Position numbers and translations under genes: made by a program. From Candidatus Heimdallarchaeota archaeon (GTDB taxonomy: Archaea > Asgardarchaeota > Heimdallarchaeia > Heimdallarchaeales > Heimdallarchaeaceae), in assembly GCA_030603365.1 (NCBI GenBank), contig JAUVXV010000006.1, forward strand, positions 110,306 to 174,305: a DNA stretch of 64,000 bases. The letters are read 5' to 3'. Positions 828 to 19,784 of the stretch are shown piece after piece; position 1 is the first letter of the stretch; each line of letters starts with the position of its first letter. The notes below the pieces were generated by a model. The model had not been told where the DNA came from, searched no databases, and was given only the letters and a program-made list of their open reading frames with translations.

Positions 828-874
828 TCACAGACATTTTAACCATTTTTTTATTAAGTTAAAAGCAATTTTAT

Positions 875-1333: not shown

Positions 1334-1354
1334 TAATCAAATATGGGTGTTTAG

Positions 1355-2014: not shown

Positions 2015-2022
2015 TTTTTTGT

Positions 2023-2406
2023 TTATAAATTTTCTCTTCTATAATTCACATCATCTTCATGTTGATCATCAAAATCATTTTCTGATAAAAGAACTAGATC
2101 AAATTTAGCTCCAGATTGAAAATCAAGATGAACAACATTGTAATTGCTTCCAGGATAAACATTATCAGCTTTAAAATTTGATTTTAAAACTGAAATTAAT
2201 CTAGGATAAAAAGACTCTTCTGAAGGATTACCTGTAACAGAGAATATTACATCCATATCACTATCTGGTCTGTGTGTCCTAAGAGCTCGTGATCCAGCTT
2301 GAGCTATTCTAGAAATTTTCAGATTTGATTTTGTCATTACATTAACTATACTCTTCCATAGTCTATGATAATGAGCTTCACTATTCTTATTATTATTAAA
2401 TGTCAT
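2023..2406 (-). CDS. Minimal Pol-beta-superfamily nucleotidyltransferase (SMODS/OAS-like core only)
   Basis: AQAGSRALRTHRPDSDMDVIF (hGS...DxD) and a third acid in KFDLVL; only 127 aa. Confidence 0.8.
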   Translation of the reverse strand: MTFNNNKNSEAHYHRLWKSIVNVMTKSNLKISRIAQAGSRALRTHRPDSDMDVIFSVTGNPSEESFYPRLISVLKSNFKADNVYPGSNYNVVHLDFQSGAKFDLVLLSENDFDDQHEDDVNYRRENL

Positions 2407-2508
2407 GACAAAGTAATTGTTATTAAATTATAAAAAGCTTTAGAATTCCATTGCAGTTATACTGAAAACACATACAACAAAACCAAGTTTTTTAGATGCA
2501 ACAAGATT

Positions 2509-3279
2509 CTATTTGAAAATAAAGGTTTCATCAATTGGATTAGTCTTTATCTTCTTGTATGCGTTTTTCGATTCACTTAAAAGAAATTCTTTTTTTGGGA
2601 AACTGAAATTATATGAAACTAGTGATCTATTCCTAGAATCAAACAATTGCAGATTATCCTTTAGTTCAGAATCTTTAATATATTCAAAAAACAACTTCAG
2701 AGAATCTGTAAAAGTTTCAGGTTCATTGCTTTTGAAACAACGTACTAGTATTAATTCAATTGCAAAAGAAGGAATATTTCCAGTATTAGGAGAATTTTCA
2801 GGTAAATCTCTCCAATATTTTAGAATTCTAGCAGATCCTTTAAACAGATCACCATAACCTGCTATTTCAGCAACTTCTTTCATTGATCTTTGTGCTCTTC
2901 CCAGATCATCAGTTAAACCATATTTAGTTGGTAAAACATCCATATGAACTCCTCTTACAGTTATATTTACTGATCTCTTACGTATTATAGATTGTGTTGT
3001 AGAACAGCCTTTGAGAGTTGTTTGAAATCTTTCTAATATTTTTTCCATATCTTGTTTTGGGGAAAGCAGAACTACAGCATCAAGATCACTTTGTCCTTTG
3101 ATTCCTGTTCCCTTACCTATGGAACCACATTTCCAAATTTCTACCTTAAGGATATTCTTATTACCATCTAGACATTTGGAAACCGAATTTAAAGCTGCAT
3201 TATAATTTCTTATATCAGATATACTAGGTTTCAATTTCTTTGCTAAACTGACTAATCTATCTTCAAAACTCATTTTCAA
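2509..3279 (-). CDS. OAS/CD-NTase-like (SMODS) nucleotidyltransferase
   Basis: GSIGKGTGIKGQSDLDAVV, HMDVLP, RILKYW and PSFAIELI are the OAS/CD-NTase N-lobe and C-lobe signatures. Confidence 0.85.
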   Translation of the reverse strand: MKMSFEDRLVSLAKKLKPSISDIRNYNAALNSVSKCLDGNKNILKVEIWKCGSIGKGTGIKGQSDLDAVVLLSPKQDMEKILERFQTTLKGCSTTQSIIRKRSVNITVRGVHMDVLPTKYGLTDDLGRAQRSMKEVAEIAGYGDLFKGSARILKYWRDLPENSPNTGNIPSFAIELILVRCFKSNEPETFTDSLKLFFEYIKDSELKDNLQLFDSRNRSLVSYNFSFPKKEFLLSESKNAYKKIKTNPIDETFIFK

Positions 3280-3283
3280 TTCC

Positions 3284-4213
3284 TCAACTATACTTCTTTA
3301 CAATATTCCTTACTAAGGATTCTAGTTCTAATAAATCTTTTTGGACGAATTTTTGTTCACTTTTTTCCTGAGGATGTATAAAAAATGTCAAGACTTTATT
3401 AGATGCTAGCATTGAATCCTTATCAATAAAGTTTACAACATGCTTATCAAATAAATGGTGAATAATACTTCCAAATGTTTTAGTTTTAAACAAGTCAACA
3501 AGGAAATTTGAGTAATTATCTTTTAAAACACTCTCCATAGAATATCTAAAAAGAAATGCTCCAATTGCTAAACCATAGTCATCGTTCCTATTTATTTCTT
3601 CTATTGCTAAATCAATCATACTGTTTCTTCGTTCTTGTACTAATTGATTTTCTATGAATTTTATCTTGTTCTTTGCTTCGTGTATAAGGTATGGTGAGGT
3701 AAGAATTGCTTTTATCTTTAGTTCGATTTCTCTCAATTTCTTCTTATACCCATTTTTAACAGAATTACTAATTATATTATCTTGTTCAGATTCTTCATTT
3801 AATTCTGTCAAAATATAGAAATCTTCGTATTTTCTATGATATAAAATTGTTTTCCCTTCTTGATTTCTCTTTGAATAACCCCAATCAGTAAAGTACCAAG
3901 GTTTCTTAACTAGAATCATATTGAAAAGACTTTTTTTATCTGAAGGACTTGTCAATTCTTGAAAAAGCTGATAGAGATAATCTTCTGAATATTTCTTCAG
4001 ATATGCTGCTGTAGTTATTTGCCAGTGTATAAACTGTTCAAATAATTTATCACTGAGAAAAATGTCAGAAATTACTGGCTGAATTTTTACATAATCAGAA
4101 TTAGATGATTCATCTCTTGTTGTCAATGTAAGCTTCTTAATACTCTCAATTAGCAAATCATTTATTTCCTGAAATTCCTTAAGCTGTTCCGCAAATAGTG
4201 TTACAATATCCAT
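3284..4213 (-). CDS. Protein with C-terminal DUF4145/HEPN-like domain
   Basis: GAFLFRYSMESVLK...FGSIIHHL...NKVLTFFIHP resembles the HEPN (R..E, late His) pattern; the catalytic Rx4-6H motif is degenerate. Confidence 0.5.
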   Translation of the reverse strand: MDIVTLFAEQLKEFQEINDLLIESIKKLTLTTRDESSNSDYVKIQPVISDIFLSDKLFEQFIHWQITTAAYLKKYSEDYLYQLFQELTSPSDKKSLFNMILVKKPWYFTDWGYSKRNQEGKTILYHRKYEDFYILTELNEESEQDNIISNSVKNGYKKKLREIELKIKAILTSPYLIHEAKNKIKFIENQLVQERRNSMIDLAIEEINRNDDYGLAIGAFLFRYSMESVLKDNYSNFLVDLFKTKTFGSIIHHLFDKHVVNFIDKDSMLASNKVLTFFIHPQEKSEQKFVQKDLLELESLVRNIVKKYS

Positions 4214-4281
4214 CCGTTTTAAGCTCCGTCTTATAATAACTGATGTTAAAATTATACTTACTAGTTCATTAATGTATTTTG

Positions 4282-4701
4282 TTATTTCCTGAAATCATCA
4301 ATTGCTTTGTTAGCTAATTTATCTGCTTCTTTATTTTCTTCTCTCCGAATATGAGAATACGAAACCTTTTCAAAATAAGTTTCTTTCTTTTTTACTTCTT
4401 CAAAGAGCTCTTTTAGTTTTTCATTTCTTATTCTATATACACCTGTAAGATGATTAACAAGTAATTCAGAATCACTTAGAACATGTACTTTTCCTCTACA
4501 AACGCCTGCACACATGTCAAGCCCATAAATTAATGCGTTGTATTCAGCTTGATTATTTGTTAAACGGTTTCCAAGATATTTTGAACCTTTTTCTAATATG
4601 TTTCCTGACATATCTTTAATTATAAATCCTCCACCAGCTTTACCAGGATTACCTCTAGAACATCCGTCTACAAATAATCTAACCTCAAAACACTTCTTCA
4701 T
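4282..4701 (-). CDS. rnhA: Ribonuclease HI (archaeal/RNase_HI-like)
   Basis: FVDGCSRGNPGKAGGG, TNNQAEYNAL, SDSELLV, HIRREENKEADKLAN. The ATG at 4701 is preferred over the track's TTG at 4728. Confidence 0.92.
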   Translation of the reverse strand: MKKCFEVRLFVDGCSRGNPGKAGGGFIIKDMSGNILEKGSKYLGNRLTNNQAEYNALIYGLDMCAGVCRGKVHVLSDSELLVNHLTGVYRIRNEKLKELFEEVKKKETYFEKVSYSHIRREENKEADKLANKAIDDFRK

Positions 4702-4756
4702 CTCGAGTATACGTTTTTTAGGAAACAAATTAAAGGTTTTACTAAAATAAATGATA

Positions 4757-4785
4757 ATTGTAAAAAATATCTATAAAATTACCTT
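4757..4785 (-). promoter_or_regulatory. Island dyad site 2 (AAGGT-N19-ACAAT) upstream of the RNase HI/NTase cluster
   Basis: 19-nt spacer; TTTAATTT ~23 nt downstream on the - strand. Confidence 0.6.
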
Positions 4786-4896
4786 TTATTCTTCAAATTC
4801 CTAAATGTTTAATTAATAAAGTTCTAAAACTAAATAGGTAAGAAGAACTTAAAATTATGGACTCGGAGAGATCAGTATACCAAATAAAAATTCTAG

Positions 4897-5931
4897 CTAA
4901 CGTTCCAGATCTCTTAATTTCTGAAAAATTTTATCAGTCAGAATTTCTCTTTCTTTGCTATGATGAAATCTTTGATGGCAATTTGGACATACAGCAACAA
5001 CATTATCGGGAGAATCTGTTCCACCATCACTTAAGGGAACCAAATGATGTATCTCTAAAAAAGGTTCCTCATTTTCAGTTATGAAAGGCGCTGGACTATC
5101 GCAGCATTCACACTTACCCTTTGATCGTATCTTAGCATACTTGCGGACATTATGATCCCTTAAGTATTGTATAGTTTCAATTGTACTTTTCCTGATATTT
5201 TCTAGTTTGCTTCTTATGATTTCTAACAGATCACCCAAGTTTTTTTCTTCAACTATTTGTTCGATTAATTTCTCATAACTCTGAAGAATATCAGTAGAAA
5301 CGGCACTAGTGTCATATATCATTGATTTATCTTCATTCTCAGCGATATTAACTAACCAAGGATTAACCAATCTTAACAGATTTGTTTTCATTTCTATAAA
5401 AGTTTCTTCGTTCAGAACAGGATGTAGAAGTTTGATCTCTTGTGGAATGCTTAATTTGTAATAATAGTTTCGACCTCTCTTTCCTTTACTTAGAAGGCCT
5501 TCTTCAATTCTCTTAGTTATCTTATAAACTCTAAAAATAGCTAGATATCCTTGTTCTTGATTCTCAAAATAATTAAATGGAGCAATTGGATCCCAGACTT
5601 GAAAGAATCTGTTGCACAGATTTTCAAACATTTCATAATTAACATTAACCTTTAGATAAGAATCAATGAAGGCAACATATTCCAAAGGGAAAGGTTCATT
5701 CAAGATACTGTTTTCATTTAATGAACCTAAAGAAGATAGTTTGAATGTTGCTTTTGTTAATTTAGTATCAAGTAAGAAAGGACCGATATGAGGATTCATT
5801 TCCTTTTTACAGAGCAGTATTTGATGGTTTTTATATAAATTCTCAAAACCAAATGTCATAGAAAAGATATTTACAATCTCATCGCGTAATGCATATATTA
5901 GTTCCATGACATTCACCTTACTTAGTCTCAA
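4897..5931 (-). CDS. HNH endonuclease (McrA-like C-terminus) with a DUF1802/PUA-like N-terminal domain
   Basis: CECC...LEIHHLVPLSDGGTDSPDNVVAVCPNCHQRFH. The N-terminal QILLCKK/FLL/LAIFRVY pattern resembles DUF1802 (weaker call). Overlaps the dptH-like stop by 4 nt. Confidence 0.8.
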   Translation of the reverse strand: MRLSKVNVMELIYALRDEIVNIFSMTFGFENLYKNHQILLCKKEMNPHIGPFLLDTKLTKATFKLSSLGSLNENSILNEPFPLEYVAFIDSYLKVNVNYEMFENLCNRFFQVWDPIAPFNYFENQEQGYLAIFRVYKITKRIEEGLLSKGKRGRNYYYKLSIPQEIKLLHPVLNEETFIEMKTNLLRLVNPWLVNIAENEDKSMIYDTSAVSTDILQSYEKLIEQIVEEKNLGDLLEIIRSKLENIRKSTIETIQYLRDHNVRKYAKIRSKGKCECCDSPAPFITENEEPFLEIHHLVPLSDGGTDSPDNVVAVCPNCHQRFHHSKEREILTDKIFQKLRDLER

Positions 5932-8900
5932 ACATTCTTTACTGACCTTCCACCATGTGTTGTTGATCGAGGTCTTATTTTTATTTTCTTCATTCCCATT
6001 GTAAAATCTAAGCGGTTTGCTTCTTTAGCCCATATTAGTGCCTCACCTTTCTCAAGATTAGAAAGTTCTTTTATGTCAACATCTTCCATGCTACTTAGTT
6101 TCTTCTTAAGAATTTTCAACCAATCTGGAACAACAGTTTTATGAATTATTACAATTTCAGAAAGCTCAATTATTGTATCAGCTATAGATTTAGGATCTTG
6201 AGATGATACAACTAGAGAAACTCCTCTATGTCTTACTTCTCTATTTAATGTAACTATTTCTTCTTTCATTGAAGTTGAGAAGTATTTGTGAGCTTCATCA
6301 AACACTATTAATTTATTCCCCTCCCCTCGTTCAGATGCTACTCTAGCAAAAATCAAGAATAAGGACATAGCAGTATTCTTATCCATTAGTTTTTCTCTAA
6401 CATCTACAATAACTGTATCACCCTTGTTGATGTACTTAAATGCATGATTTTCTTTAGAGATATATCTCCTGGCAAGATTAATCCTTCGTTTTGCTAATTT
6501 CTTTTGATTTAGACTTAATTCATCATCTTCTTCAACAAGTTTTAGTAAATTGGTAGGTGTAAGTTCACTCTCTCCGTAATATAATTCATTCAGAAATTCA
6601 TGTATAACTTGAATATATAAGGAATCATTTGAATCAGCAAAAAGCAACAGTCTCCAGCCATCAATTCCTAAGTCTTCAGGATGGAAGAAAAGAGGAAATA
6701 CATCGATTTTTGATTCATTCTCATATATTTTCTTTTGTTCTTCATAAGATCTAGGAGTAACAAACACCTTGATTTTCTCTAGAGGAACTGCATGTTGGTT
6801 ATATTTCAATAACAAAGCATTCAATTCGTCTTCATTATCGTTTTTATCAATTAAGCTTAGATATTCAGGGGCATATGAAGTGTCTTGATGAAAATGGAAA
6901 ATTATGGTCTGGAGTTTAGAATGAATATTATTCAAACCAGGAGGCAAATTTTGAGCAGCTTCTATAATTACTCCTGTTGTATAACTCTTACCACTTCCTT
7001 TAGCTCCCAGTATTACTGTAGTCAGAGGTTCATTCATGTTTACTGCTACTTTCTTATTCTGATATTCTCCAATAATGCCCCATTCTTCAGCAACACTATC
7101 ACCAGTTGTACCAAGCATTATTTCTGGGTCCAAAACTGGTGCAATACTTATTTCCGCTGTAACTTCCTCTAGCTCATCTTTTAATTTTGTTACTGGTTCT
7201 TCAACTTCAATTGGTTTTATTTCCATTACATCTTCTAGTGTTTCATCTTCAATAACTTCAAGTGCAGTAAAACTTTCTTGAGATGTTATTATAGGAGTTT
7301 CTGTTACTGCTTCTAATGCTTCTTTTTCAATTACTTCAATTTCATCCACAATATCAAGTAGAACAGCTATTTTCTCAAGTCCAAATAAGAAAATTCCATC
7401 CAGTTCTAATTCAGGATCTATATCTTCTGCAGAAACATAAGGGTCAAAACCAAACACTTTGCCATACAGCAGTTTATTTTCTGTTTTATAACCAAAAAAT
7501 GTCTCATAATTCTGTCTTTGAATTTTTTCAATGACATCTATAAGAAATTCATGTACAATTAATGCTTTATCTGTTTCAAAATATCTAAAGAATCTTCTAA
7601 CATTTTTCTCCAATAATTGAGCTAATTCTAGATCTCTCAAACTAGAATTATAATCTCCAAATCTATGAAATCTATGTTTAAGGATGAGATATGCAGATTC
7701 AATTTGTTCCTTAGCACCTGATATTACATCTCTTTTACTTGCACTTTCACCATGCTTAGCTTCAATTGGAATCATAGTTATATTTATTTTCTCAAGATCT
7801 TGTCCATCTCTCTCTATTACGATCTCAAGCAAATCATCACTTAGTTTAGAGAATTTCTCAGAATCATCATTTTTCCAAGCTTCGATATAATGATAATTAG
7901 AAATCACAATTCGGATTGATTTTATATCTCCATTTTCAATTTTCACTAGAGGTTGATTTTGATTCCCCTTTAGTAGTTCGAATAGTGCTAGTACTTCTCC
8001 TAACTTTCCTGTTAAATTTGGATATTCATCCTTTAGTGCAGATAATGCCCAACTCCCTGCTAGATAGTTAAGAGACGATAGCAACATGTTCATTGTTTTT
8101 TCTTTGTGTATCTCATGTTGACAAAGAAGTTTTAGCTGGTTTTTCATAATGGCCAATATATAATCAATTTGTTCAGTTGTGACTATAACATTGGAATGAT
8201 TAATTTGGCTTTCAAATGGTGGAGAAAAATCTATTAAATATTCAACCTGGTCATTTAAAGCACGATCAAATAACTCAACCCCTAGATCTTGATCAATAAA
8301 ACATGCCCAATCAGTGTTTTGATGTAATGAAGTTATAATATCTTTCATTTTAGGCTCAATCTGTAGCATCAAAGATAATAAATTATTCTCATCATAGGTT
8401 TGATGAATTGACGCTGAAAAACAAGTCATTGTGTGAAGTAGTTGGTTATATATTACAGTAAAATCAGAATCAGAATTTGGAATTGCTTGAATATTGTTTG
8501 TTGGATATGTAAACATACCTCTATAAAATCGACTATCTGAAGGATCAAATTTGGTATCATAATAGCTAAATATACTCGATTGTGTAGAACTAAAACGATT
8601 TGCTTTTGGAGTACTAACACGTATTGAATCATGAAAAATACCAGAAATGAATGTCAAATGGGAATACGGAAGATTCTCTATCACTTTTATAGTCTCACTT
8701 AGTTCACTTCTTTTGTCAGGTGAAACATTTGAAATAACGTATGAGATGGAACTCATCATTTGTGCTTCAAAATCATTAGGATTAGGCTTCGAAAAGAATT
8801 CTACAAAACTTCTTCCTAATTCATAACTAGGAACATCTTCTCTTGAAAAAAGACTGATATTATATTTGAGTTCCAAATCACGATATCTTTTCTTTCTGTT

Positions 8901-11579
8901 TAGTTTCAGAAGCGCATCAAGAAGATGTTGTCCACGTGATGGATTAATAAAATTAATACTAATAGTTGTATTTTTTTGAAGTAGATATGGATGAGATACA
9001 AGATAATTTTCGATTTTATCATGAATAATCTTGGTTAAATCAAGACCTTGTTCTAGAGACGAGAAGTCTAATATTTCATTTATAATGGATTCTCCTTCAA
9101 TTCTTTGATTCTGCTCATAACCTTTTCTCTTTTCAGCAAGAGAGATATAAATTCCCCAAGAATCATATTTCGAGGTTAATTTTAAATAAGTAGTATCTAG
9201 GAGTGTATCTGCTTCAGTATTCTGTCCCAAATTTAGAAGAAGGGGTATAGAGCTTCTCTTAATTTTGTCAACATCATACCTTGAAATCTTACTGATTTTA
9301 TTATCAGTTTCAAACCATGAGTAAAACTGTTTTTGTTTAAGCAATAAATTAAGTAACATCAAAGGATGAAGAGGTGTCATCAGACCTATATAGGGATCAT
9401 TTTCCTTATTCTGAATGAAAATAAAATCAAAGAATAACAGAATAGATCTGTAATCAAATACTTTCTCTTCCTTTTGATAAATATTCTTTTCACTAGAAAG
9501 AAGTGAAAGATATGTAAATGCATATTCATAGATTATATTTTCATAGGGAATCAGGTTAATAGTAAAGATTGGTAGATTCAGAGTTTTAATTCTGTCCTCG
9601 ATTTTTTTAAATAATGTTTTTCTACAATTGATGAAACTTTCAAATTCTGTCATTTCTTTAATTGTGTTTATTCTATCTGCTGCCCAACTATGATTAATCA
9701 GATCTAATTCAATTTCAGAATTAGGTATAAAATTAAGTTGTTCTATTCTTTTACATGAAGGAAAGGGGTTCATTTCTTTTTCAGAAAGAATCCATTTTTC
9801 AAGTTCAAATAGATCCGAAGAATATTCAATTACATATGTTTCATTTGTTTTCTGATTCTTCAATGTGAGAGATTTATTTACATATGATATATAATCAATT
9901 AAAGGCTCTCCGAATTTCATGAAATCTAGACTATCAATATTAACATTAAAAATATCTCCTAGTTGAATTTGACTAGATTCCTTGTTAAATTGTGATTCAA
10001 AGAGTATATCGTAAATGGACTCACTTCTTTCTGCATAGTCTTTATCTCTATAAATCTTATAATTCAGATAGACAGATTCATTTTTATATTTTATTTGAAG
10101 AGTTCCTTCATCTTCCAATTCATCAGTTGATATTACAATTTGTTTTCTCTCAGTTATAAATTTGAAACTAACTTCTAAATCCTCAGGAGATTCATCTTCA
10201 TATGCTTCTTTCAATACATTGAAAGAATCTGAGGTTTCTCCTATTATTGCAAGTATTAGGGAATCATTAACATTGTCATCAATATAGAAATTATTTTTTT
10301 CAAGGTTTCCATTAATTTCATAAACTTCCCAATTTCTAAGACCACTATTGTAAATGAAATAGTAATTAATGGGTTCACGAACTTTAGATCTTGCTGTAGG
10401 CTTATAACTAAAAGTGATATAATTCAATCCATCATGCCAATTCTTTTTCTTGATCGAAAAGGTAAAATCAGTTTCATTTTTTGGAACTGGAAGTGTCTGT
10501 TTAGTTGAAGATTCATTAATTGTAAATAGTAATTGTTCTTGACCAGACAAGTATCTGGATATAGTAAACTTTAGACTAAGAGAATCTTCAGTTACATTAA
10601 AAATGCTCTGTAATGAGGTTGAAAATATGCACTCACTTGAACTGTGCTTTGTTTTATCCAATTCTATATTCAAAAAAGAGAACTTCTGAGCTACTTCTGA
10701 AGGTTTTTCAAGTTTTGATACTATTTTAGAGAGGAGTAATTCTTCAGGCCAATTTCTGAAAATTTCATTAATTTCTGAAGTAGATTGGTGTCTAATCCAA
10801 GAATCCACTTCTTGAGCTTTGGAGGGGTCACAATAATCTTCAAGTATGTAAAAAACACTATCTCCCGATTGTATTGCTTCTTTTATATTTCTTGAGATTT
10901 TCATATTAATTTCTAAATATTCATGAGTATTCACAGAAAATTTAGTAAATGAAAGCTCATCATCTCTAATCAGACCAATCAAATGAAGTTTCTTAGCGAA
11001 ATCAACTTCAGAATCTGCAGATAATATTTTTTGAATAAAATTAAATAGATCACTGAAATTCTTATAAACAAAATTATCAGATTTGCTTTCTAGATAATTT
11101 TTCAAAAAATCCAAATATGAACTCATAGGTTTATCATGCAATTTGTCTATTTGATTCATCAAAATTTCTCTTCTAGATAGAAAAGATTTGGAAATCATCA
11201 AACCAGCTGTAGCTAAAGAGTCTAGATTTAGCATATTTGGAGTAGCAATATAGAGTAGTGTTTTATCTGTTTGTCTTGAAAGATCTCGTATCTTAACTGC
11301 AAATCCTTGAGAACAATTATACTTTGAGTCAATCAAATCATCTGTAATCAAACAAACTGCGACATCAGAATCTTTTGCCCAACTATTCAAATGATTATTT
11401 TCCGGAAAAGAGAGTTTTTCGCTTTTCCCTGTATTTGTTAATAGATCATACAAAGATTCCAGAATTTTTCCATCAGTATCAGCAAATAGCAATATTGATT
11501 TTGAGACAGTTTCTTTATTATCTTCTAAAATTTCCTCAATAGCTTTTGCGATTTCTGTATGTATTTTTTGATATTTCAT
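5928..11579 (-). CDS. dptH: DptH/MAD8-like large protein with a PD-(D/E)xK motif and C-terminal HerA/FtsK-type ATPase
   Basis: Walker A GAKGSGKSYT, Walker B LIVFDEAHKY, REVRHRGVSLVVSSQDP, terminal RPRSTTHGG (MAD8-like tail), and SDDLL...IPIEAK nuclease-like motif. Confidence 0.75.
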   Translation of the reverse strand: MKYQKIHTEIAKAIEEILEDNKETVSKSILLFADTDGKILESLYDLLTNTGKSEKLSFPENNHLNSWAKDSDVAVCLITDDLIDSKYNCSQGFAVKIRDLSRQTDKTLLYIATPNMLNLDSLATAGLMISKSFLSRREILMNQIDKLHDKPMSSYLDFLKNYLESKSDNFVYKNFSDLFNFIQKILSADSEVDFAKKLHLIGLIRDDELSFTKFSVNTHEYLEINMKISRNIKEAIQSGDSVFYILEDYCDPSKAQEVDSWIRHQSTSEINEIFRNWPEELLLSKIVSKLEKPSEVAQKFSFLNIELDKTKHSSSECIFSTSLQSIFNVTEDSLSLKFTISRYLSGQEQLLFTINESSTKQTLPVPKNETDFTFSIKKKNWHDGLNYITFSYKPTARSKVREPINYYFIYNSGLRNWEVYEINGNLEKNNFYIDDNVNDSLILAIIGETSDSFNVLKEAYEDESPEDLEVSFKFITERKQIVISTDELEDEGTLQIKYKNESVYLNYKIYRDKDYAERSESIYDILFESQFNKESSQIQLGDIFNVNIDSLDFMKFGEPLIDYISYVNKSLTLKNQKTNETYVIEYSSDLFELEKWILSEKEMNPFPSCKRIEQLNFIPNSEIELDLINHSWAADRINTIKEMTEFESFINCRKTLFKKIEDRIKTLNLPIFTINLIPYENIIYEYAFTYLSLLSSEKNIYQKEEKVFDYRSILLFFDFIFIQNKENDPYIGLMTPLHPLMLLNLLLKQKQFYSWFETDNKISKISRYDVDKIKRSSIPLLLNLGQNTEADTLLDTTYLKLTSKYDSWGIYISLAEKRKGYEQNQRIEGESIINEILDFSSLEQGLDLTKIIHDKIENYLVSHPYLLQKNTTISINFINPSRGQHLLDALLKLNRKKRYRDLELKYNISLFSREDVPSYELGRSFVEFFSKPNPNDFEAQMMSSISYVISNVSPDKRSELSETIKVIENLPYSHLTFISGIFHDSIRVSTPKANRFSSTQSSIFSYYDTKFDPSDSRFYRGMFTYPTNNIQAIPNSDSDFTVIYNQLLHTMTCFSASIHQTYDENNLLSLMLQIEPKMKDIITSLHQNTDWACFIDQDLGVELFDRALNDQVEYLIDFSPPFESQINHSNVIVTTEQIDYILAIMKNQLKLLCQHEIHKEKTMNMLLSSLNYLAGSWALSALKDEYPNLTGKLGEVLALFELLKGNQNQPLVKIENGDIKSIRIVISNYHYIEAWKNDDSEKFSKLSDDLLEIVIERDGQDLEKINITMIPIEAKHGESASKRDVISGAKEQIESAYLILKHRFHRFGDYNSSLRDLELAQLLEKNVRRFFRYFETDKALIVHEFLIDVIEKIQRQNYETFFGYKTENKLLYGKVFGFDPYVSAEDIDPELELDGIFLFGLEKIAVLLDIVDEIEVIEKEALEAVTETPIITSQESFTALEVIEDETLEDVMEIKPIEVEEPVTKLKDELEEVTAEISIAPVLDPEIMLGTTGDSVAEEWGIIGEYQNKKVAVNMNEPLTTVILGAKGSGKSYTTGVIIEAAQNLPPGLNNIHSKLQTIIFHFHQDTSYAPEYLSLIDKNDNEDELNALLLKYNQHAVPLEKIKVFVTPRSYEEQKKIYENESKIDVFPLFFHPEDLGIDGWRLLLFADSNDSLYIQVIHEFLNELYYGESELTPTNLLKLVEEDDELSLNQKKLAKRRINLARRYISKENHAFKYINKGDTVIVDVREKLMDKNTAMSLFLIFARVASERGEGNKLIVFDEAHKYFSTSMKEEIVTLNREVRHRGVSLVVSSQDPKSIADTIIELSEIVIIHKTVVPDWLKILKKKLSSMEDVDIKELSNLEKGEALIWAKEANRLDFTMGMKKIKIRPRSTTHGGRSVKNV

Positions 11580-13360
11580 TGTTTCATCGCCAACCCATAA
11601 ACAAATTGTGCCTCTTTAGCATCCGAAGCCTCATAAAATAGACCTAACTTACTTAAAGCTGCTTTCAATCCCTTATTCTCTATACTATCTGGATCTTCAA
11701 CAAACGATATTATAATTCCTCGATTTTTCAAGAAGTCCTTAAAATCATCAAAAACAATAATATTATTGTTATTCAGAGTTGAGATTTGTGCAAAAATCTG
11801 AATCAATGTGTCTGATAATGTATAGTAATTACCTACGCCTCTTCTTTTCTGCATGAAACCAGTTCCACCAGAATAAGACATATTTCTGAAGAATGCAAAG
11901 AAATGTTTTCTAGAATCATTTGCTGAGGTTTGCTTATTATAATGTGCCATTATTACATCAAAGAGTCTTTTGATGTTAGTACCTTTATTGAATTCATTTT
12001 TCTGTAACTCTTGGAAATAATCCTTTTTTCTTTCAACTGTTATATTCTGAAGTTCCAAATATCTAGAAATACATAAACCAAAATAGATTTCAACAAAATT
12101 CCTGAAATCTTCTTCCGATTCATATGATTCATGAAAATCACTAAACGAATAGAATTGATTTGTGCTATAGTACTTGTTCATACAGGATCTGATATGATTG
12201 AAAATTATTGAATAGGGAGCTAATTTTAGAACTAGATTTGCATCTTCCTTACATTTTTCTAGATAAGCAGTTTTTTTGTGAACTACTGGATCATCATCAA
12301 TTTTAGGATAAATTCTTGGTGTGCATTCACAATTTTGAATGTCATTTCTAGTAAATTGACATTTTGAACAATCTATTACATCTAATTGTCTTCTTTTTGC
12401 TGGAGACATTTTAAAAATCTCACTCATATTCTTTTCAAAAATGTATGATAATCTTAAAATGTATAAAGCTAGATGAGAAGATAAAACAGTATAGAACCAG
12501 TGTATTATAGTCTCTTTATTAAAGGATTCTCCCATATTCAAGATGTTCAACAGATCAGAGCGTATTTGATCAGTATGTAGTTCGCAAATTGGAGATTCTA
12601 ATGAATCCACAACACCAAGAAGTTTTGTGCGTGATTCTTGCAAGTTCGGTAAGTTTAATTTATTGATTCTTTCCTGAATTGAGTTAATTAGAACTTTACC
12701 TAAAATTCCTAGAGAATCAATATTTTCCTTAGCAAGAAATGAACGTAGTTTTTCCAAAACCTGTATTTTGTTTATACCCTCCTTCTTTTGGTTAGTCAAA
12801 AGCTGTAGTAACAAATTCTTAATTCTGATAGCTTCCTTAACACCCCAAATTATGCTTATTTTAACATTAAATGGAAAGAGAGTTATGAATTTATTATCAA
12901 TTTTAGCAGGTTTATCTTCTCTATACATTGCCCAATTTTCAAAAATCCATTGGTTAAGTATTGTTTTTGCTCTTTCTTGTTTTATTTGAGAGTCTTTGGA
13001 TTCATGGAAATCAATTTCTATTATTTCATCTTCATAATCCTTAAAATCTTCGAAATTCATATTTTCTAGCATCAATTCTGAGACAGAAGTAACATCCAAA
13101 GGATTCTTCGGATTTCGTTTGAAATGCTGACCAGTATGTGACAATTGAACTAACAAAGTAAAAACCTCACACACATTAACACCAAGAGGTGAGGAAGGTA
13201 GAATATCTCTCGAAGTTCTAGCATGAAATTCTCTTTCTGAATATGGAATGCTAATTTCGGTTTTATTCTTCCAGATAAATTCTGTATCATCTTTGAGATG
13301 ACTTATTTTATCAACATGTTTTTTGTAATACTTTCTAATCATCAACATTGTAACCTCCAA
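11576..13360 (-). CDS. dptG: DptG/MAD7-like protein
   Basis: Lies between dptF- and dptH-like genes with overlapping codons. C-terminal FLKNRGI...LSKLGLFYEASDAKEAQFV is typical of DptG/MAD7. Confidence 0.65.
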   Translation of the reverse strand: MEVTMLMIRKYYKKHVDKISHLKDDTEFIWKNKTEISIPYSEREFHARTSRDILPSSPLGVNVCEVFTLLVQLSHTGQHFKRNPKNPLDVTSVSELMLENMNFEDFKDYEDEIIEIDFHESKDSQIKQERAKTILNQWIFENWAMYREDKPAKIDNKFITLFPFNVKISIIWGVKEAIRIKNLLLQLLTNQKKEGINKIQVLEKLRSFLAKENIDSLGILGKVLINSIQERINKLNLPNLQESRTKLLGVVDSLESPICELHTDQIRSDLLNILNMGESFNKETIIHWFYTVLSSHLALYILRLSYIFEKNMSEIFKMSPAKRRQLDVIDCSKCQFTRNDIQNCECTPRIYPKIDDDPVVHKKTAYLEKCKEDANLVLKLAPYSIIFNHIRSCMNKYYSTNQFYSFSDFHESYESEEDFRNFVEIYFGLCISRYLELQNITVERKKDYFQELQKNEFNKGTNIKRLFDVIMAHYNKQTSANDSRKHFFAFFRNMSYSGGTGFMQKRRGVGNYYTLSDTLIQIFAQISTLNNNNIIVFDDFKDFLKNRGIIISFVEDPDSIENKGLKAALSKLGLFYEASDAKEAQFVYGLAMKQ

Positions 13361-15261
13361 GAGAAAAATGAACCTTTTTCATCCGTATTAATCTTTAAAG
13401 TACACATGTCTTGTGCAATTAAATCTAATTTATAATCCTTTGAAGAAGCTAAATAGAGTAGTTTTCTTTTAATTAATTCAATTTCTTCATATTTTCTTTG
13501 ATCCAGAGTACTTGGACGATAACCGTAAGCCATTTTAAAAAGAAAATAATAGGTTTTGAAATCTAGCTCAAAACTGATAGGTTTATCTCCATTAACTCGC
13601 AAAATAATTTGGATTCTTATCGGTAACTGTGCAAAAACGTCTCGAAATTCATATGAAAAAGGTATTCTTATTTCTGATTTTCGCATATCTATAGATAACC
13701 TAACTAAAGATGAAACTGAAGGAATACGGTTTAATCTAAGAATTTTTTTCTGTAAAACTATTTCATTTGGTTCTTTGTTGAACTTTTGTAATGTATCAGC
13801 GTAAGAGTCACTTAAAGAAAGTGCTCTACAAATTCTTCTGATCAGTCTAAACTTCAGCTTATCAGGGATTTCATTATTAGCTTCATTTTTGTATCTGACA
13901 AGATTTCTAAATTCATCTAAACATTGAGATTTAATGTCTTGATCTTTTATTTGAGTTTCAGGTATAGGAAATTGCTGAAAGAAAAATTGACGTTGAATTA
14001 TATACTGAAAGGATTCGCTCTTTAACGATCTTAATTCATTCATAACTGATTTAATATAGCGTTGATTTTGATTTTCTCTACCAATTAGTTCTTCTTCCAT
14101 TTCAGCAATATCTTTCTGTAATCTTATGAAAAAGATCTCTTCAAGAGAATCGAAATTTTCCTTCATTCTTCCAATTTCGGAAACTAAACTTGCAAAACTA
14201 TAAGACATGTAATTTATCCAATTTTTCGTAGATAGAAAAATCGGACGATAATTTTTGAAGAAATCAAGTGTTTTAAGATCAATTAATTTGTATAGTGCCT
14301 TTTCGTTTAGCAAGAATATCTTATTGTAGAATAAATGATCAAATTGAGATCTGTCTCCGCTTTCATCAAATTCTCTTTTAAATTCAATAATTTCTTCCTG
14401 ACATGTTTGAAATTTATACTCACTAAAATGGCCTGCTATTAGATAAGAGATTGTTTCTAAGAATAAACGTAGAGTAATATGTGAGGTTTCTTCGATTTCA
14501 TATTTCATGAATAAATTTTTTATTTGCTCTTTTACTGTATCATTATTATTTATCATTGAAATATTGGAAATTAAATAGCAGTAATTTCTAACAGAACATT
14601 CTTGACATTGAGAGGATAAAACAACTTTTTCATTTAGATTTGTTATTATTGAATCGAATATCGAATCATTACCAGCAAAAATATCTCTAATAGACAAGTC
14701 AATAAATGATACATTCCACACAGGTTCTTTTGTTGTTGGTTTTTCTTGTTTAATAGGCAAATTAAGATTCTTTAGTGTAAAATATTCAAGCCATTTATAC
14801 TTTTGTACTGTATCTTTCATATTCTTGAAAAAGTGCATTAACATACCAGTGTTAATTGCAATCATCTTTAGTACCTTAGGTTTATTTTGGATAGATGAAT
14901 CACTATACTCTCTAAAGAATATTTTAAGATCATCTAATTGGTTTTTATCTGGTTTATCTGCATGACTTGCATCTAGATTATATTCAATTCTTCTTCCATT
15001 TATCGTATTGCCAATTAATTCTTTAAACTTCGAAAGAAAAACTGTTTTTCCATCACCTGCTGTTCCAGAAATAATTATCAAATCAATTTGATTAGATGTA
15101 TTTTCTTTTTCAGTTATAATTTGAACAAGTTTTTCCTCAAAAGTAGGTACATATAAAAGTTCTTGATCACCTAATAATTCAGTTCCAGCGACAACATTAG
15201 ATCCACCTTTATTAAAACTACTAATTATCTGTAAATAATTCTTCATTTTCCCCACCAGCAT
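13342..15261 (-). CDS. dptF: DptF-like P-loop protein
   Basis: IIISGTAGDGKT, NLDASH, FFREYSD, IAINTGML and the CxxC...C/N motif match the DptF (and MAD6 C-terminal) pattern. Confidence 0.72.
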   Translation of the reverse strand: MLVGKMKNYLQIISSFNKGGSNVVAGTELLGDQELLYVPTFEEKLVQIITEKENTSNQIDLIIISGTAGDGKTVFLSKFKELIGNTINGRRIEYNLDASHADKPDKNQLDDLKIFFREYSDSSIQNKPKVLKMIAINTGMLMHFFKNMKDTVQKYKWLEYFTLKNLNLPIKQEKPTTKEPVWNVSFIDLSIRDIFAGNDSIFDSIITNLNEKVVLSSQCQECSVRNYCYLISNISMINNNDTVKEQIKNLFMKYEIEETSHITLRLFLETISYLIAGHFSEYKFQTCQEEIIEFKREFDESGDRSQFDHLFYNKIFLLNEKALYKLIDLKTLDFFKNYRPIFLSTKNWINYMSYSFASLVSEIGRMKENFDSLEEIFFIRLQKDIAEMEEELIGRENQNQRYIKSVMNELRSLKSESFQYIIQRQFFFQQFPIPETQIKDQDIKSQCLDEFRNLVRYKNEANNEIPDKLKFRLIRRICRALSLSDSYADTLQKFNKEPNEIVLQKKILRLNRIPSVSSLVRLSIDMRKSEIRIPFSYEFRDVFAQLPIRIQIILRVNGDKPISFELDFKTYYFLFKMAYGYRPSTLDQRKYEEIELIKRKLLYLASSKDYKLDLIAQDMCTLKINTDEKGSFFSWRLQC

Positions 15262-15350
15262 TTATGAGTTTATTTCTAAGGCAAATTCAAGCCTTGTATA
15301 CTAAAAAGAAATGATTGTTAATTAATAAGTTTAATTGAGAGTAGATAGAT

Positions 15351-15379
15351 ATGGTATTTTTTTAAATAATTATAACCAT
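15351..15379 (-). promoter_or_regulatory. Island dyad site 3 (ATGGT-N19-ACCAT, perfect) upstream of the dptF-like operon
   Basis: Perfect 5-bp inverted arms; TTATTAAT ~23 nt downstream on the - strand. Confidence 0.75.
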
Positions 15380-16251
15380 TAAGTTTGCAAATCAAAAACC
15401 ATTGTTCTTGAATCTTTTGCTGATTTTGCTTTTCCAAGTACATCTAGTATGTAAAAGGCATTTTGAAACGCAAATCCTTTATCTCTGTCTTCAACATCAG
15501 GAAAATATCTATTTGCTTCATCCAATCTGGTTGAGACTCTATCAATAACATCATTTTTGTAATCTTTGTAGATGGATTCTACTAATTTTATTGGTATTTT
15601 ACTTGTTTCTAAGTTTAATCTTGAACCACTGAAAAGATAGTGATATTTATTTGAAGAATAAAGATGAAAGAAGCTTCTAGTTCTGAAACCTTTGGTTGTT
15701 CCAACATATTTTATGTCTTCTTTTTTCTTTGAAAAAGAAAGATCCTCTGGCATAAAAAAAGAGGTAACTTCAATGATAAGACCATGTCCTTCTCTAGTTA
15801 TAACAGCATAATCTGAAGATGCTAAGAAAAGAAACACATTTTGTAATGCATATCCCCCTTTTATTGAATTCAAATTAGGGAAGTAATTTTTTGCTATCTT
15901 TTTTCTAATAGTTGCATACTGCATTTTCTTTCCTAGAAAATCCTTAGCTACTTCAAAAATCAAACTCTTATCTATTATTCCAGATTTTATATCCAAGATC
16001 TTATTACATAAGCAGTGAATAGTTTCTTTTGTGTGATAGAATTCATATACGCTTCTGAAGCCATAAATATCCGATATTCTATCCAAAGTAAAACTACTAG
16101 GCAAAAATTCTAATATATTCTTAACAGATTCTTTTTCTCTATATTCACTTGATGTTCTAGGAATAATATCACTTTTCTTCTTATTTCCACATTTACATCT
16201 TTGAGGAAGATAACCACATTCTGGACAGAAAATAAATGGATCTTCGGACAT
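15379..16251 (-). CDS. Hypothetical protein with N-terminal Zn ribbon and two internally similar domains
   Basis: CPECG..RCKC at the N-terminus; repeated GYALQNVFLFL / GFAFQNAFYIL motif. Confidence 0.7.
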   Translation of the reverse strand: MSEDPFIFCPECGYLPQRCKCGNKKKSDIIPRTSSEYREKESVKNILEFLPSSFTLDRISDIYGFRSVYEFYHTKETIHCLCNKILDIKSGIIDKSLIFEVAKDFLGKKMQYATIRKKIAKNYFPNLNSIKGGYALQNVFLFLASSDYAVITREGHGLIIEVTSFFMPEDLSFSKKKEDIKYVGTTKGFRTRSFFHLYSSNKYHYLFSGSRLNLETSKIPIKLVESIYKDYKNDVIDRVSTRLDEANRYFPDVEDRDKGFAFQNAFYILDVLGKAKSAKDSRTMVFDLQT

Positions 16252-16313
16252 AACAATCAGCTTTGATCATCTATTATCCTAAGAATTTTAAAATGTAGCT
16301 TAAAATTATAAGT

Positions 16314-16342
16314 ATTGTAAAAACTGGAAAGAGAAATACCAT
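16314..16342 (-). promoter_or_regulatory. Island dyad site 4 (ATGGT-N19-ACAAT)
   Basis: TTTTAAAA begins 21 nt downstream on the - strand (16293). Confidence 0.7.
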
Positions 16343-16406
16343 TTTCTGATACCATTCCAATCCTCTATATCTTACTTAAACAAAAGGAACTCTTTATCTT
16401 ATTAAT

Positions 16407-17876
16407 TCATAATCCTCTTAATCTTGCATGGATGTAGTCATCTTTTTCATTGACTGAATAAAGAAATTCAGCTCTACCTTTTTCTGTTTGTTTTATATTT
16501 ACTAAATTTTTCCTATTTAGATCTGCAAGTGGTTTTGGAGGTTTTCTCTTCAGTTCATTTTCAGTAATTAAATTCTGATTTATTCTTTTTTGTATCAGCC
16601 ATTTTTTAATTTCAATTCGAATTCCGTATGCACTCATAGAACCTAAAGGTTTTGGAGTTTGTAGCTTTAAACCAGATATTCCTTTATTAACAACATCTTC
16701 TTTATATTTATCAAGAAGAAAATCAAGAATAACCTTTTCTTTTTGAGTTAAAATTGGTTCAGTAATTTGGTTTCTTTCTAAATCATAGTTCTTTCTTATT
16801 TTATTTATAATAGTATTTCCGCGTGACAGAAACATTACCTGTTCTCTTAGTTCCCAAGTTTTAATCTTACTAATGATTATCTCTTGTATCTTATCACTGT
16901 ATTTTTGATAGGCTAATATTTCTGCTGATTTCTTAAATAATACCCTTTGATAATGCTTTGGTAAAATTTTCAAATTTTCGAGAGATGAATAATAAATGAC
17001 ATCGAACACAGCTAGTGAGTACTCAAAAAATTCGAACTTTTTTTCAATCGGTTTTTCATTAATTTCTTCCTTATTCAAAATGTCTATCGTTCTATCTGCT
17101 AAAACACGTAACATGAAAATAAGATTAATAGCATGTTTTATCCTTTCAAGGAATAATTTACTGTAGTTCTTCTCACGAATTAATAGAATTTTATTAAAAT
17201 CCAGAAAAACTATATTTACATCATTTATTTTGATTTTTTTCTTGTTTCTTAAATCAAAATTAAGTTTCTTTAGATTTTTAGAATTTACTTCAATCATAGT
17301 ATGAGTATTTGATTCCATAACATGAAACTTACTAAAATCAGTGAAAACAGCTGATAAAATATCCATTTTTTCTGAAGTTTTTTCTCTGTTGCAAATTTTT
17401 GCGATTTTATCTAACTTTTCTTGTATCTTTTTTGTTTCAGTATTTACTTCTAGTGATACTTTTTTTGTTATAGTTCCAATAAGAGAAGGAAAAATCTCAA
17501 CTCGTTTTCTAGGTTTCAATAATTCTAAGTCATTTTCATTAATAATCCATTTAATATAGTTAGAAACAAAAGCAATAAGTGGTCGAATTGGTTCTTTGTC
17601 ACAAATATAACCTCTTGTATTTCTATAATAATTGTATGATTCAGTTGTTAACCCAATTTTGACTTTCCCCATCTTAGGAACGAAAAAATCGTGATTTTTA
17701 TCTTTATAATTATCTTCTTTTGTTTTGTTTTTCTTTGCAAAATAAAGTTGTTCAAGTTTTTGGCAGAACTTTTCACTGGTTTTAAGAAACTCTAGAGGTT
17801 TTCTAACATTTTCTTCATAAATTATCTCTAATAATGGAACAAAAAAACTGAAAGTCAAATCAATTTTATTTTTCAT
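16407..17876 (-). CDS. Hypothetical protein with probable C-terminal winged helix
   Basis: LTQKEKVILDFL...LADLNRKNLV...GRAEFLYSVN; ATGA overlap with the upstream regulator. Confidence 0.6.
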   Translation of the reverse strand: MKNKIDLTFSFFVPLLEIIYEENVRKPLEFLKTSEKFCQKLEQLYFAKKNKTKEDNYKDKNHDFFVPKMGKVKIGLTTESYNYYRNTRGYICDKEPIRPLIAFVSNYIKWIINENDLELLKPRKRVEIFPSLIGTITKKVSLEVNTETKKIQEKLDKIAKICNREKTSEKMDILSAVFTDFSKFHVMESNTHTMIEVNSKNLKKLNFDLRNKKKIKINDVNIVFLDFNKILLIREKNYSKLFLERIKHAINLIFMLRVLADRTIDILNKEEINEKPIEKKFEFFEYSLAVFDVIYYSSLENLKILPKHYQRVLFKKSAEILAYQKYSDKIQEIIISKIKTWELREQVMFLSRGNTIINKIRKNYDLERNQITEPILTQKEKVILDFLLDKYKEDVVNKGISGLKLQTPKPLGSMSAYGIRIEIKKWLIQKRINQNLITENELKRKPPKPLADLNRKNLVNIKQTEKGRAEFLYSVNEKDDYIHARLRGL

Positions 17877-19773: not shown

Positions 19774-19784
19774 TGTAGTGTAAG

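What the first reader, a model, noticed from the sequence alone, without database searches (positions are those of the whole stretch)
4897..15261. Orphan DptFGH/MAD6-8-like restriction trio translationally coupled to a putative modified-base-reading HNH nuclease
Seen: four genes with overlapping stop/start codons (13342-13360, 11576-11579, 5928-5931). The 1883-aa protein has a MAD8-style ATPase tail and a PD-(D/E)xK motif. The DptF-like protein lacks the N-terminal kinase region of MAD6. No dndABCDE, ssp or methyltransferase gene lies in the window. Established: DndFGH works with phosphorothioation, MADS with methylation, and characterised archaeal PT defence uses PbeABCD. Inference: a stand-alone archaeal variant in which a DUF1802/PUA-like-HNH protein supplies recognition, possibly of modified viral DNA.
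Basis: partly seen in the sequence, partly recalled or inferred. Interest (0 to 1): 0.72.

Follow-up and report, generated by a model that had tools for sequence, protein, structure and literature searches.

The report
Asgard MADS-like restriction cassette plus McrA-like nuclease
An Asgard archaeon carries a rare, stripped-down relative of the bacterial MADS/DndFGH anti-virus machine, and right behind it, probably on the same transcript, sits a separate nuclease of the kind that cuts chemically modified DNA; this nuclease looks like an add-on, not the machine's missing recognition subunit.

Summary
The four genes are real. The trio is a true but very divergent MAD6-8/DndFGH-type module:
- H is collinear with a named MAD8 over about 1,230 residues (E 6e-72). 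Its D...ExK nuclease motif and HerA Walker motifs are conserved.
- F equals the DndF/MAD6 core without the NERD/kinase region.
- G is weakly MAD7-like.

The fourth protein folds with high confidence into an ASCH/PUA-like (DUF1802-related) reader plus an EcoKMcrA-type HNH domain. This is a known Type IV architecture.

The only close relative of the cassette (66-71% identity, another Heimdall MAG) keeps a missed 290-aa zinc-ribbon gene plus F-G-H, but has a PLD-DpnI_C nuclease where the HNH gene sits here. HNH homologs elsewhere are solitary genes. About 150 bacterial MAD8 loci mostly carry a PP2C phosphatase in that slot, and none carries this nuclease.

One stated overlap (H/HNH) is probably a 20-nt gap with a ribosome-binding site. 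No dnd gene or methyltransferase lies in the window. The nearest methyltransferases belong to a complete Type I system 31 kb away. Stand-alone DndFGH in archaea is already published.

Verdict: a new variant of a known kind, of moderate interest. The scan noted this same stretch twice before, and no look-alike on other DNA.

The parts
15379..16251 (-). 290-aa protein with an N-terminal CPxCG...CxCG zinc ribbon. It is conserved upstream of F-G-H in the sister cassette. Function unknown; possibly a DNA-binding or regulatory partner.
   Evidence: 66% identical over 289 aa to L002:1152-2024. No Pfam, PADLOC or Atlas match. Absent from 399 other Asgard genomes. AF2 model unusable, pLDDT 37.5.
13342..15261 (-). 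F: DndF/MAD6-core P-loop kinase-like protein, 639 aa. The likely start is the second ATG at 15246, giving 634 aa. Walker A is GTAGDGKT. Walker B carries Asn (AINTG). It has a Cys-rich lid insert.
   Evidence: PADLOC DndF 5.7e-18 and SspF 1.8e-14, res 41-281. BLASTP to Spirosoma MAD6 res 851-1096, E 2e-12. 67% identity to the L002 homolog. Motifs match the DndF description in PMC10853773.
11576..13348 (-). G: MAD7/DndG-like protein, about 590 aa. Its start overlaps the F stop by 7 nt, and its stop overlaps the H start (ATGA).
   Evidence: NCBIfam MAD7 4.7e-08 but only 32.5 bits against a 410-bit cut-off. The sister protein carries a faint PF26611 MAD7 hit. BLASTP to Spirosoma MAD7 E 9e-4. Junctions.
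5928..11579 (-). H: 1883-aa MAD8/DndH-like protein. It has a PD-(D/E)xK-type nuclease motif (D1249...E1273-x-K1275) and a C-terminal HerA/FtsK-type ATPase (Walker A 1525-1532, DEAH 1761-1764). The N-terminal ~650 residues have no detectable relatives.
   Evidence: PADLOC mad8 2.8e-29. BLASTP to named MAD8 P0141, E 6e-72, 25% identity over res 649-1881. Motif conservation in 27 homologs. PDB HerA 8xau 2.9e-06. hhalign of res 1-650 against MAD8 N-termini, probability 0.3%.
5908..5927 (-). 20-nt spacer between the H stop (TGA, 5930-5928) and the probable HNH start (ATG 5907). It contains an AGGTGA ribosome-binding site, has no T-tract and leaves no room for a promoter.
   Evidence: Sequence read. 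The collection's recorded product of this gene is 336 aa (P0005).
4897..5907 (-). 336-aa ASCH/PUA-like (DUF1802-related) reader (res 1-~170), helical linker, and EcoKMcrA-type HNH nuclease (res ~248-335). Predicted Type IV (modification-dependent) restriction endonuclease.
   Evidence: AF2 pLDDT 91.9. HNH domain matches 6ghc with Z 14.1 and 43% identity. N-domain matches ASCH folds 6kir (Z 8.2), 5guq (Z 8.0), TRIP4 and YqfB. phmmer against 6ghc 4.3e-22. In its family, 14 of 98 members hit DUF1802, and members are fused to HNH, NucS_C, Mrr_cat, HSDR_N or AAA_5.
4882..4890 (-). T-tract (TTTTTATTT) 7 nt after the HNH stop codon. Plausible archaeal terminator marking the end of the transcription unit.
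   Evidence: Sequence read. That it acts as a terminator is inference.

Best explanation
The locus is a composite of two restriction modules in an AT-rich, horizontally acquired defence island of a Heimdall-group Asgard archaeon.

Module 1 is a four-gene cassette: a 290-aa zinc-ribbon protein, F, G and H. It is a minimal MAD6-8/DndFGH-type system.
- H is the effector. It combines a PD-(D/E)xK nuclease with a HerA/FtsK-type DNA-pumping ATPase.
- F is a nucleotide-binding P-loop kinase-like sensor or regulator.
- G is the MAD7/DndG-type DNA-binding partner.
- The cassette lacks the Ser/Thr kinase, the PP2C phosphatase and the Type I-like methylase and specificity genes of its bacterial MADS relatives.

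Module 2 is a self-sufficient Type IV enzyme. An ASCH/PUA-like pocket domain reads a modified base, and an McrA-type HNH domain cuts nearby.

The HNH gene was inserted directly behind H and is probably read from the same transcript. The two modules would then be expressed together and cover each other's gaps, one acting on ordinary invader DNA and the other on modified invader DNA. The HNH protein is an add-on, not a subunit.

Shown here: homologies, motifs, fold, gene order and distribution. Inferred: co-transcription, the activities and the complementarity.
For: Trio homology:
- H against a named MAD8: E 6e-72 over about 1,230 residues. Nuclease and ATPase motifs are invariant.
- F matches the DndF/MAD6 core. 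G is weakly MAD7-like.

The conserved unit is 290aa+F+G+H, at 66-71% identity in L002/L003. A different nuclease lies downstream there, and synteny breaks at the H stop.

HNH protein:
- High-confidence ASCH + McrA-HNH model.
- Its reader domain forms a family of 127 representatives. It occurs alone or fused to HNH, NucS_C, Mrr_cat, HSDR_N, AAA_5 and EVE.
- Homologs are solitary genes elsewhere.
- PUA-superfamily-HNH and PLD-wH fusions are published Type IV classes (PMC6765204, PMC11037411).

Bacterial relatives: in 160 loci the slot after MAD8 holds PP2C (112), a metallophosphoesterase (8) or assorted defence genes, and never this HNH.

Transcription unit: the H-HNH spacer is 20 nt with an RBS and no T-tract, and a T-tract follows the HNH gene.

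Acquisition: the whole block is absent from 399 other Asgard genomes. GC is 0.27-0.31 against 0.33-0.40 in the rest of the window. In a same-genus genome, the ortholog of the flanking 489-aa gene is followed by an OLD-family nuclease instead.
Against: - Three loci have a reader-nuclease gene directly after a MAD8-like gene, each of a different family: ASCH-HNH here, PLD-DpnI_C in L002, and HARE-HTH-Mrr_cat only 10 nt after MAD8 in L119. This could mean a functional partnership rather than mere adjacency.
- Only two independent Asgard-type cassettes are known, so conservation statistics are weak.
- G's link to MAD7 is far below the family cut-off.
- The N-terminal third of H has no detectable homology.
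- No activity, transcript or interaction data exist.
- How the trio spares host DNA without a cognate methylase is unexplained.
Confidence: 0.6

Rival explanations
1. First reader's model. The ASCH-HNH protein is an integral fourth subunit that gives the F-G-H complex its target recognition (modified viral DNA) and possibly its cutting activity.
For: The gene starts 20 nt after the H stop, with an RBS and no promoter space. Reader-nuclease genes of three different families sit in the same slot in three loci. F here lacks the N-terminal effector domains that other DndF/MAD6 proteins carry.
Against: The gene is not conserved in the sister cassette. It is absent from 160 MAD8 loci. Homologs are solitary elsewhere. 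H keeps its own invariant nuclease motif. The protein has the complete architecture of single-chain Type IV enzymes such as EcoKMcrA.
Confidence: 0.15
2. The trio is not truly orphan. It uses host DNA methylation written in trans as its self mark, as bacterial MADS uses its own Type I-like methylase. The writer could be the Type I system 31 kb away or another of the genome's methylases.
For: Bacterial relatives nearly always have N6_Mtase and Methylase_S genes just upstream. The genome encodes a complete Type I R-M with two HsdM genes on the same contig, plus C5 and N4/N6 methylases. The only tblastn hits of the MADS methylase in this genome are those two HsdM genes.
Against: That Type I operon is complete with its own HsdR, so it needs no partner. 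The sister cassette's 13-kb contig has no methylase either. Published analysis argues that DndFGH works without an inbuilt modification module. The assembly is 89% complete, so absence elsewhere cannot be judged.
Confidence: 0.25
3. The cassette is a decaying or inert remnant of a bacterial MADS operon that lost its methylase, kinase and phosphatase after transfer, and the neighbouring HNH gene is unrelated.
For: It lacks four components that are typical of its bacterial relatives. It is extremely rare: 1 of 400 Asgard genomes.
Against: All ORFs are intact. Two lineages at 66-71% amino-acid identity both keep four full-length genes, the overlapping junctions and every catalytic motif. This argues for purifying selection. 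Kinase-less F cores also occur as separate proteins in bacterial loci (L119).
Confidence: 0.07

Closest known systems
MADS (methylation-associated defence system) MAD6-MAD7-MAD8 module, e.g. Spirosoma endbachense CP045997 locus (L027); prototype Pseudomonas aeruginosa SMC4386
   Same: Same gene order F-G-H with overlapping junctions. H is collinear with MAD8 from residue ~650 to the end (25% identity, E 6e-72), with the same D...ExK and HerA motifs. F matches the MAD6 core. G is weakly MAD7-like.
   Different: No Type I-like methylase or S subunit. No NERD or Ser/Thr-kinase region on F. No PP2C or metallophosphoesterase gene after H. The N-terminal ~650 aa of H is unrelated by sequence. There is an extra 290-aa zinc-ribbon gene upstream. 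The host is archaeal (Asgard). PADLOC matched only H to a mads profile (mad8); F matched DndF/SspF and G matched nothing.
DndFGH / DptFGH (and SspFGH) restriction modules as re-analysed by Rakesh, Aravind and Krishnan 2024 (PMC10853773)
   Same: Short F consisting of the P-loop kinase core with an Asn Walker B and a Zn-binding lid insert. Giant H with a REase domain plus a HerA/FtsK ATPase. Stand-alone occurrence without dndBCDE. Presence in archaea.
   Different: No match at E<=0.01 to any NCBIfam model other than MAD7 (G) and HerA (H), so none to a Dnd-associated model. Only the F P-loop region hits the DndF/SspF profiles. The triple-wHTH fold of G and the N-terminal domains of H were not verified.
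EcoKMcrA (PDB 6ghc) and PUA-superfamily-HNH modification-dependent endonucleases (Lutz et al. 2019, PMC6765204); ScoMcrA (5zmm)
   Same: N-terminal modified-base reader, helical linker and C-terminal Zn-containing HNH domain (43% identity to the EcoKMcrA HNH, Z 14.1). No adjacent methylase.
   Different: It is not the EcoKMcrA N-domain, SRA, EVE or SBD. Its ligand is unknown, and ASCH has no experimentally proven DNA-modification specificity.
PLD-wH (DpnI_C) m6A-dependent Type IV candidates (PMC11037411) and BREX loci with an embedded Type IV enzyme (from my own knowledge of the pEFER BREX/BrxU island; not checked here)
   Same: The sister cassette carries a PLDc_2+DpnI_C gene in the slot that the HNH gene occupies here. 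A Type IV gene embedded in a larger defence operon for complementary coverage has precedent.
   Different: The nuclease families differ between the two Asgard loci. No experimental link to MADS/DndFGH-type systems has been reported in the papers read.

Membership tests
MADS (MAD6-8 core) | MAD8 homolog: giant protein with REase motif and C-terminal HerA-type ATPase | tested here: met
   PADLOC mad8 2.8e-29. BLASTP to NCBI-named MAD8 E 6e-72 over res 649-1881. Motifs invariant.
MADS (MAD6-8 core) | MAD7 homolog encoded between MAD6 and MAD8 | tested here: inconclusive
   NCBIfam MAD7 E 4.7e-08 but 32.5 bits against a 410-bit cut-off. No PADLOC or Pfam hit for the window protein. The sister protein has a faint PF26611 hit. 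Position and size fit.
MADS (MAD6-8 core) | MAD6 with N-terminal NERD and Ser/Thr kinase domains fused to the DndF-like core | tested here: not met
   F (639 aa) aligns only to MAD6 res 851-1096. Bacterial homologs have a median length of 1379 aa. Split forms with a separate 636-aa core do exist (L119).
MADS (full system) | Cognate m6A methyltransferase and specificity subunit in the operon | tested here: not met
   No N6_Mtase, N6_N4_Mtase, C5 or D12 methylase in the window. The nearest belong to a complete Type I R-M 31 kb away. The sister contig has none.
DndFGH / DptFGH | DndF: P-loop kinase core with canonical Walker A, Asn in Walker B and an enlarged lid | tested here: met
   PADLOC DndF 5.7e-18, res 41-281. 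GTAGDGKT and AINTG motifs, with the Cys-rich insert aligned to MAD6. Description.
DndFGH / DptFGH | DndG: three winged-helix domains | not tested
DndFGH / DptFGH | DndH eight-domain architecture (SF2-C, HTH, two beta-sandwiches, TRD, inactive DAM, REase, HerA/FtsK) | tested here: inconclusive
   The REase motif and HerA are present. The N-terminal 650 aa gives no Pfam hit and no profile match to MAD8 N-termini. It was not folded because of the 1200-aa limit and a two-sequence alignment.
DndFGH / DptFGH | Linkage to dndBCDE phosphorothioation genes | tested here: not met
   DndC best hit is 36 bits against a 290-bit cut-off, on another contig. No DndE was found, although that search also rang in none of the 14 control genomes, so it does not show absence. 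The assembly is 89% complete. Per PMC10853773 this linkage is not obligatory.
Type IV (modification-dependent) PUA-superfamily-HNH endonucleases | N-terminal PUA-superfamily (here ASCH-like) reader domain | tested here: met
   AF2 pLDDT 91.9. ASCH folds 6kir Z 8.2 (136 aa aligned), 5guq Z 8.0, 8alz, 9kyf and 9kyk. 14 of 98 family members hit DUF1802.
Type IV (modification-dependent) PUA-superfamily-HNH endonucleases | C-terminal HNH nuclease with catalytic His/Asn and Zn-binding cysteines | tested here: met
   Pfam HNH 2.5e-12. 6ghc 4.3e-22 by sequence and Z 14.1 by structure. CxxC...CxxC and HH...N...H are visible.
Type IV (modification-dependent) PUA-superfamily-HNH endonucleases | Cleavage depends on a DNA modification | not testable with these tools
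   Needs in vitro cleavage of modified and unmodified DNA.

The most novel reading that the evidence does not exclude
The position directly after the MAD8-type gene is a functional accessory slot. Kinase-bearing bacterial systems put a PP2C or metallophosphatase there to reset the kinase. Forms whose F is a bare core (both Asgard loci and bacterial L119) instead recruit interchangeable modification-reading nucleases: ASCH-HNH, PLD-DpnI_C or HARE-HTH-Mrr. These nucleases would be co-transcribed and work with F-G-H. Together with the new 290-aa zinc-ribbon protein, this would give a methylase-free operon that attacks both unmodified and modified invader DNA.
Probability: 0.18. Interest if true: 0.62.

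Novelty: new variant of a known kind. Interest (0 to 1): 0.4.

Why it matters
- It extends the MADS/DndFGH family to Asgard archaea in a minimal form. PADLOC matched only H to a mads profile, so profile-based tools probably would not call the system. None of the Asgard or archaeal defence papers I searched mentions it.
- It supports the published idea that the F-G-H core can work without its own modification genes.
- It gives a compact four-gene cassette, with an uncharacterised zinc-ribbon partner, for mechanistic work.
- It adds an ASCH/DUF1802-type reader to the domains found in Type IV nucleases. The modification that ASCH domains read in DNA is still unproven, so this protein and its 127-member family are practical test cases.

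Tried and rejected
- The AF2 model of the 290-aa protein, built from a two-sequence alignment, gave pLDDT 37.5 and was not used. The ESM Atlas gave only sub-threshold unnamed hits for it.
- The Atlas search on H residues 1-1450 gave unnamed clusters only.
- Permissive Pfam scans of H segments, F, G and the 290-aa protein gave nothing meaningful.
- Pattern scans with the F and G alignments found no relatives in genome or metagenome contigs.
- The metagenome scan with the H alignment found 478 relatives but no further Asgard-type cassette.
- hhalign of the H N-terminus against MAD8 N-termini found no match. The profile was shallow, so this is inconclusive.
- I tried to define the insertion boundaries from same-genus genomes. 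The closest ortholog of the flanking 489-aa gene sits at a contig end.
- The 615-aa neighbour in G039 looked like a possible F homolog. It is an OLD-family nuclease instead.
- I considered the PDB hit 2ffj for F (E 0.014). It is too weak to use.
- dN/dS between the two cassettes was not computed, because synonymous sites are expected to be saturated at about 70% amino-acid identity.
Full report
**Observation**

The window has five co-directional minus-strand ORFs at 15379-16251 (290 aa), 13342-15261 (639 aa, F), 11576-13360 (594 aa, G), 5928-11579 (1883 aa, H) and 4897-5931 (344 aa, HNH).

- The G/H junction is a true ATGA overlap.
- G most likely starts at ATG 13348, just after GGAGGT. This gives a 7-nt overlap with the F stop, the same as in the sister locus.
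- The H/HNH 'overlap' depends on a TTG start. The ATG at 5907 lies 6 nt after AGGTGA, and the collection's recorded product of this gene is that 336-aa form. The junction is therefore a 20-nt spacer with no T-tract.
- A TTTTTATTT tract follows the HNH stop.

**What the trio is**

- F hits PADLOC DndF (5.7e-18) and SspF over residues 41-281. It aligns to residues 851-1096 of a 1420-aa MAD6, sharing the Walker A motif, the Asn-type Walker B (AINTG against AINEG) and a Cys-rich insert. These are the features described for the DndF core (PMC10853773). F therefore lacks the NERD and kinase region of MAD6.
- G has only a weak MAD7 signal, 32.5 bits against a 410-bit cut-off. Its sister protein has a faint PF26611 hit.
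- H hits PADLOC mad8 (2.8e-29) and HerA models. In a direct comparison it is collinear with an NCBI-named MAD8 from Spirosoma over residues 649-1881 (E 6e-72, 25% identity).
- In an alignment of 27 MAD8 homologs, D1249...E1273-x-K1275, the Walker A motif and the DEAH box are invariant. H therefore has its own nuclease and motor.
- The first ~650 residues of H match nothing.

**The conserved unit and the fate of the HNH gene**

- Only one close relative of the cassette exists in 5.8 billion protein clusters, from a Heimdallarchaeaceae MAG. Its contigs carry 290aa-F-G-H at 66-71% identity.
- After the H stop, the sequence is unrelated to this window. There is a 156-nt spacer, a 43-aa ORF and a PLDc_2+DpnI_C protein.
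- G, the 290-aa protein and the HNH reader domain are each absent from 399 other Asgard genomes, including 24 of the same genus.
- There are no paralogs in the window's own genome.

**The HNH protein**

- An exhaustive search with its N-terminal 227 residues found 127 cluster representatives.
- Of the 98 scanned, 25 carry HNH, 14 HNH_2, 14 DUF1802 and 8-9 sigma-70 regions. Others carry AAA_5, NucS_C, HSDR_N, Mrr_cat, YhcG_C or EVE.
- Many family members are about 200-aa stand-alone proteins. Two of these lie next to an AAA_21/AAA_15 ATPase or a DUF4268 protein.
- AF2 with 44 sequences gave pLDDT 91.9.
- Residues 248-335 superpose on the EcoKMcrA HNH domain (Z 14.1, 43% identity). Residues 1-166 superpose on ASCH folds: EOLA1 Z 8.2, ZmASCH Z 8.0, TRIP4 and YqfB.
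- This is the architecture of single-chain Type IV enzymes (PMC6765204).
- Two homologs with long contigs are solitary genes in unrelated defence or mobile contexts.
- The PLD-wH protein of the sister locus belongs to another published Type IV class (PMC11037411).

**Wider family**

- A genome scan found MAD8 relatives in 211 species. The best 80 are all bacterial. A metagenome scan found 478 more relatives.
- Of 160 loci, 151 have enough downstream sequence to judge. The gene abutting the MAD8 stop is a PP2C in 112 and a metallophosphoesterase in 8.
- The rest carry assorted defence genes: STAND-SIR2, CHAT, NB-ARC, PDDEXK_1 or a helicase.
- One locus, L119, has a HARE-HTH x2-Mrr_cat gene 10 nt after MAD8. 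It is also the locus where the F core is a separate 636-aa protein.
- Methylase and S-subunit homologs lie upstream in most of these loci.

**Modification genes**

- The window's own assembly is 3.65 Mb and 89% complete. It has no DndC above cut-off. No DndE was found, although that search also rang in none of the control genomes.
- It does encode DNA methylases, but none lies in the window.
- The nearest two are in a complete Type I operon (2 HsdM, HsdS, HsdR, YgjP) about 31 kb from the trio.

**Comparison with the literature**

- PMC10853773 already shows that DndFGH is usually decoupled from DndABCDE, acts as a stand-alone system and occurs in archaea.
- MADS was defined by a mandatory MAD6-8 core.
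- Neither that paper nor the two archaeal/Asgard defence surveys I searched mentions MADS or DndFGH in Asgard archaea.

**Verdict**

This is a rare, horizontally acquired, minimal MAD6-8/DndFGH-type cassette with a new zinc-ribbon partner. It is followed by a co-oriented, probably co-transcribed Type IV-like ASCH-HNH nuclease, which is an add-on rather than the trio's recognition subunit.

The recurrence of three different reader-nuclease genes in the post-MAD8 slot keeps a functional partnership possible but unproven.

The scan had noted this same stretch twice in other windows, and no look-alike in other genomes.

Noticed in passing
L028-L107 and L112-L191 (e.g. L031:13882-14586, L073:13892-15022): In 120 of about 151 bacterial or metagenomic MAD8 loci, a PP2C phosphatase (112) or a calcineurin-like metallophosphoesterase (8, e.g. 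in Chloroflexota genomes) starts at or within a few bases of the MAD8 stop codon. This looks like a conserved ninth component pairing with the MAD6 Ser/Thr kinase. I did not see it mentioned in the MADS papers I read.
   Followed up: partly
L119:13181-14101: A 2x HARE-HTH + Mrr_cat protein is encoded 10 nt after a bacterial MAD8 gene. In this locus MAD6 is split into a 752-aa NERD/kinase protein and a 636-aa core.
   Followed up: partly
Proteins P0062 and other members of alignment A1: The ASCH/DUF1802-like reader domain is fused to sigma-70 regions 2 and 4 in 8-9 of 98 family representatives. This suggests transcription factors that respond to a modified base or nucleotide.
   Followed up: no
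L004:4430-6747 and L005:2958-4542: Stand-alone ~200-aa copies of the same reader domain sit directly upstream of an AAA_21/AAA_15 ATPase (L004) or a DUF4268 protein (L005). These look like two-gene sensor-effector pairs.
   Followed up: no
window 16407-17876 and G039:C160:25-1872 (L202): The 489-aa gene flanking the cassette has orthologs in 9 of 24 same-genus genomes. In G039 its downstream neighbour is an OLD-family AAA_15+TOPRIM nuclease instead of the cassette, so this position is a variable defence slot.
   Followed up: partly
G000:C16:81809-90072 (L110:5810-14072), about 20-28 kb before the window start: A complete Type I R-M operon with two tandem HsdM genes (490 aa each), one HsdS, HsdR and a YgjP-like metallopeptidase. 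The duplicated methylase subunit is unusual.
   Followed up: partly
window 1-20000: GC content is 0.27-0.31 here against 0.33-0.40 in the rest of the window. This fits a foreign, AT-rich defence island that also holds the CD-NTase/HEPN cassette at 2023-4213.
   Followed up: no
L002:275-565: A 96-aa fragment matching the C-terminal half of restriction endonuclease BglII (E 3.9e-12) lies upstream of the sister cassette. It is probably a degraded Type II enzyme gene.
   Followed up: no
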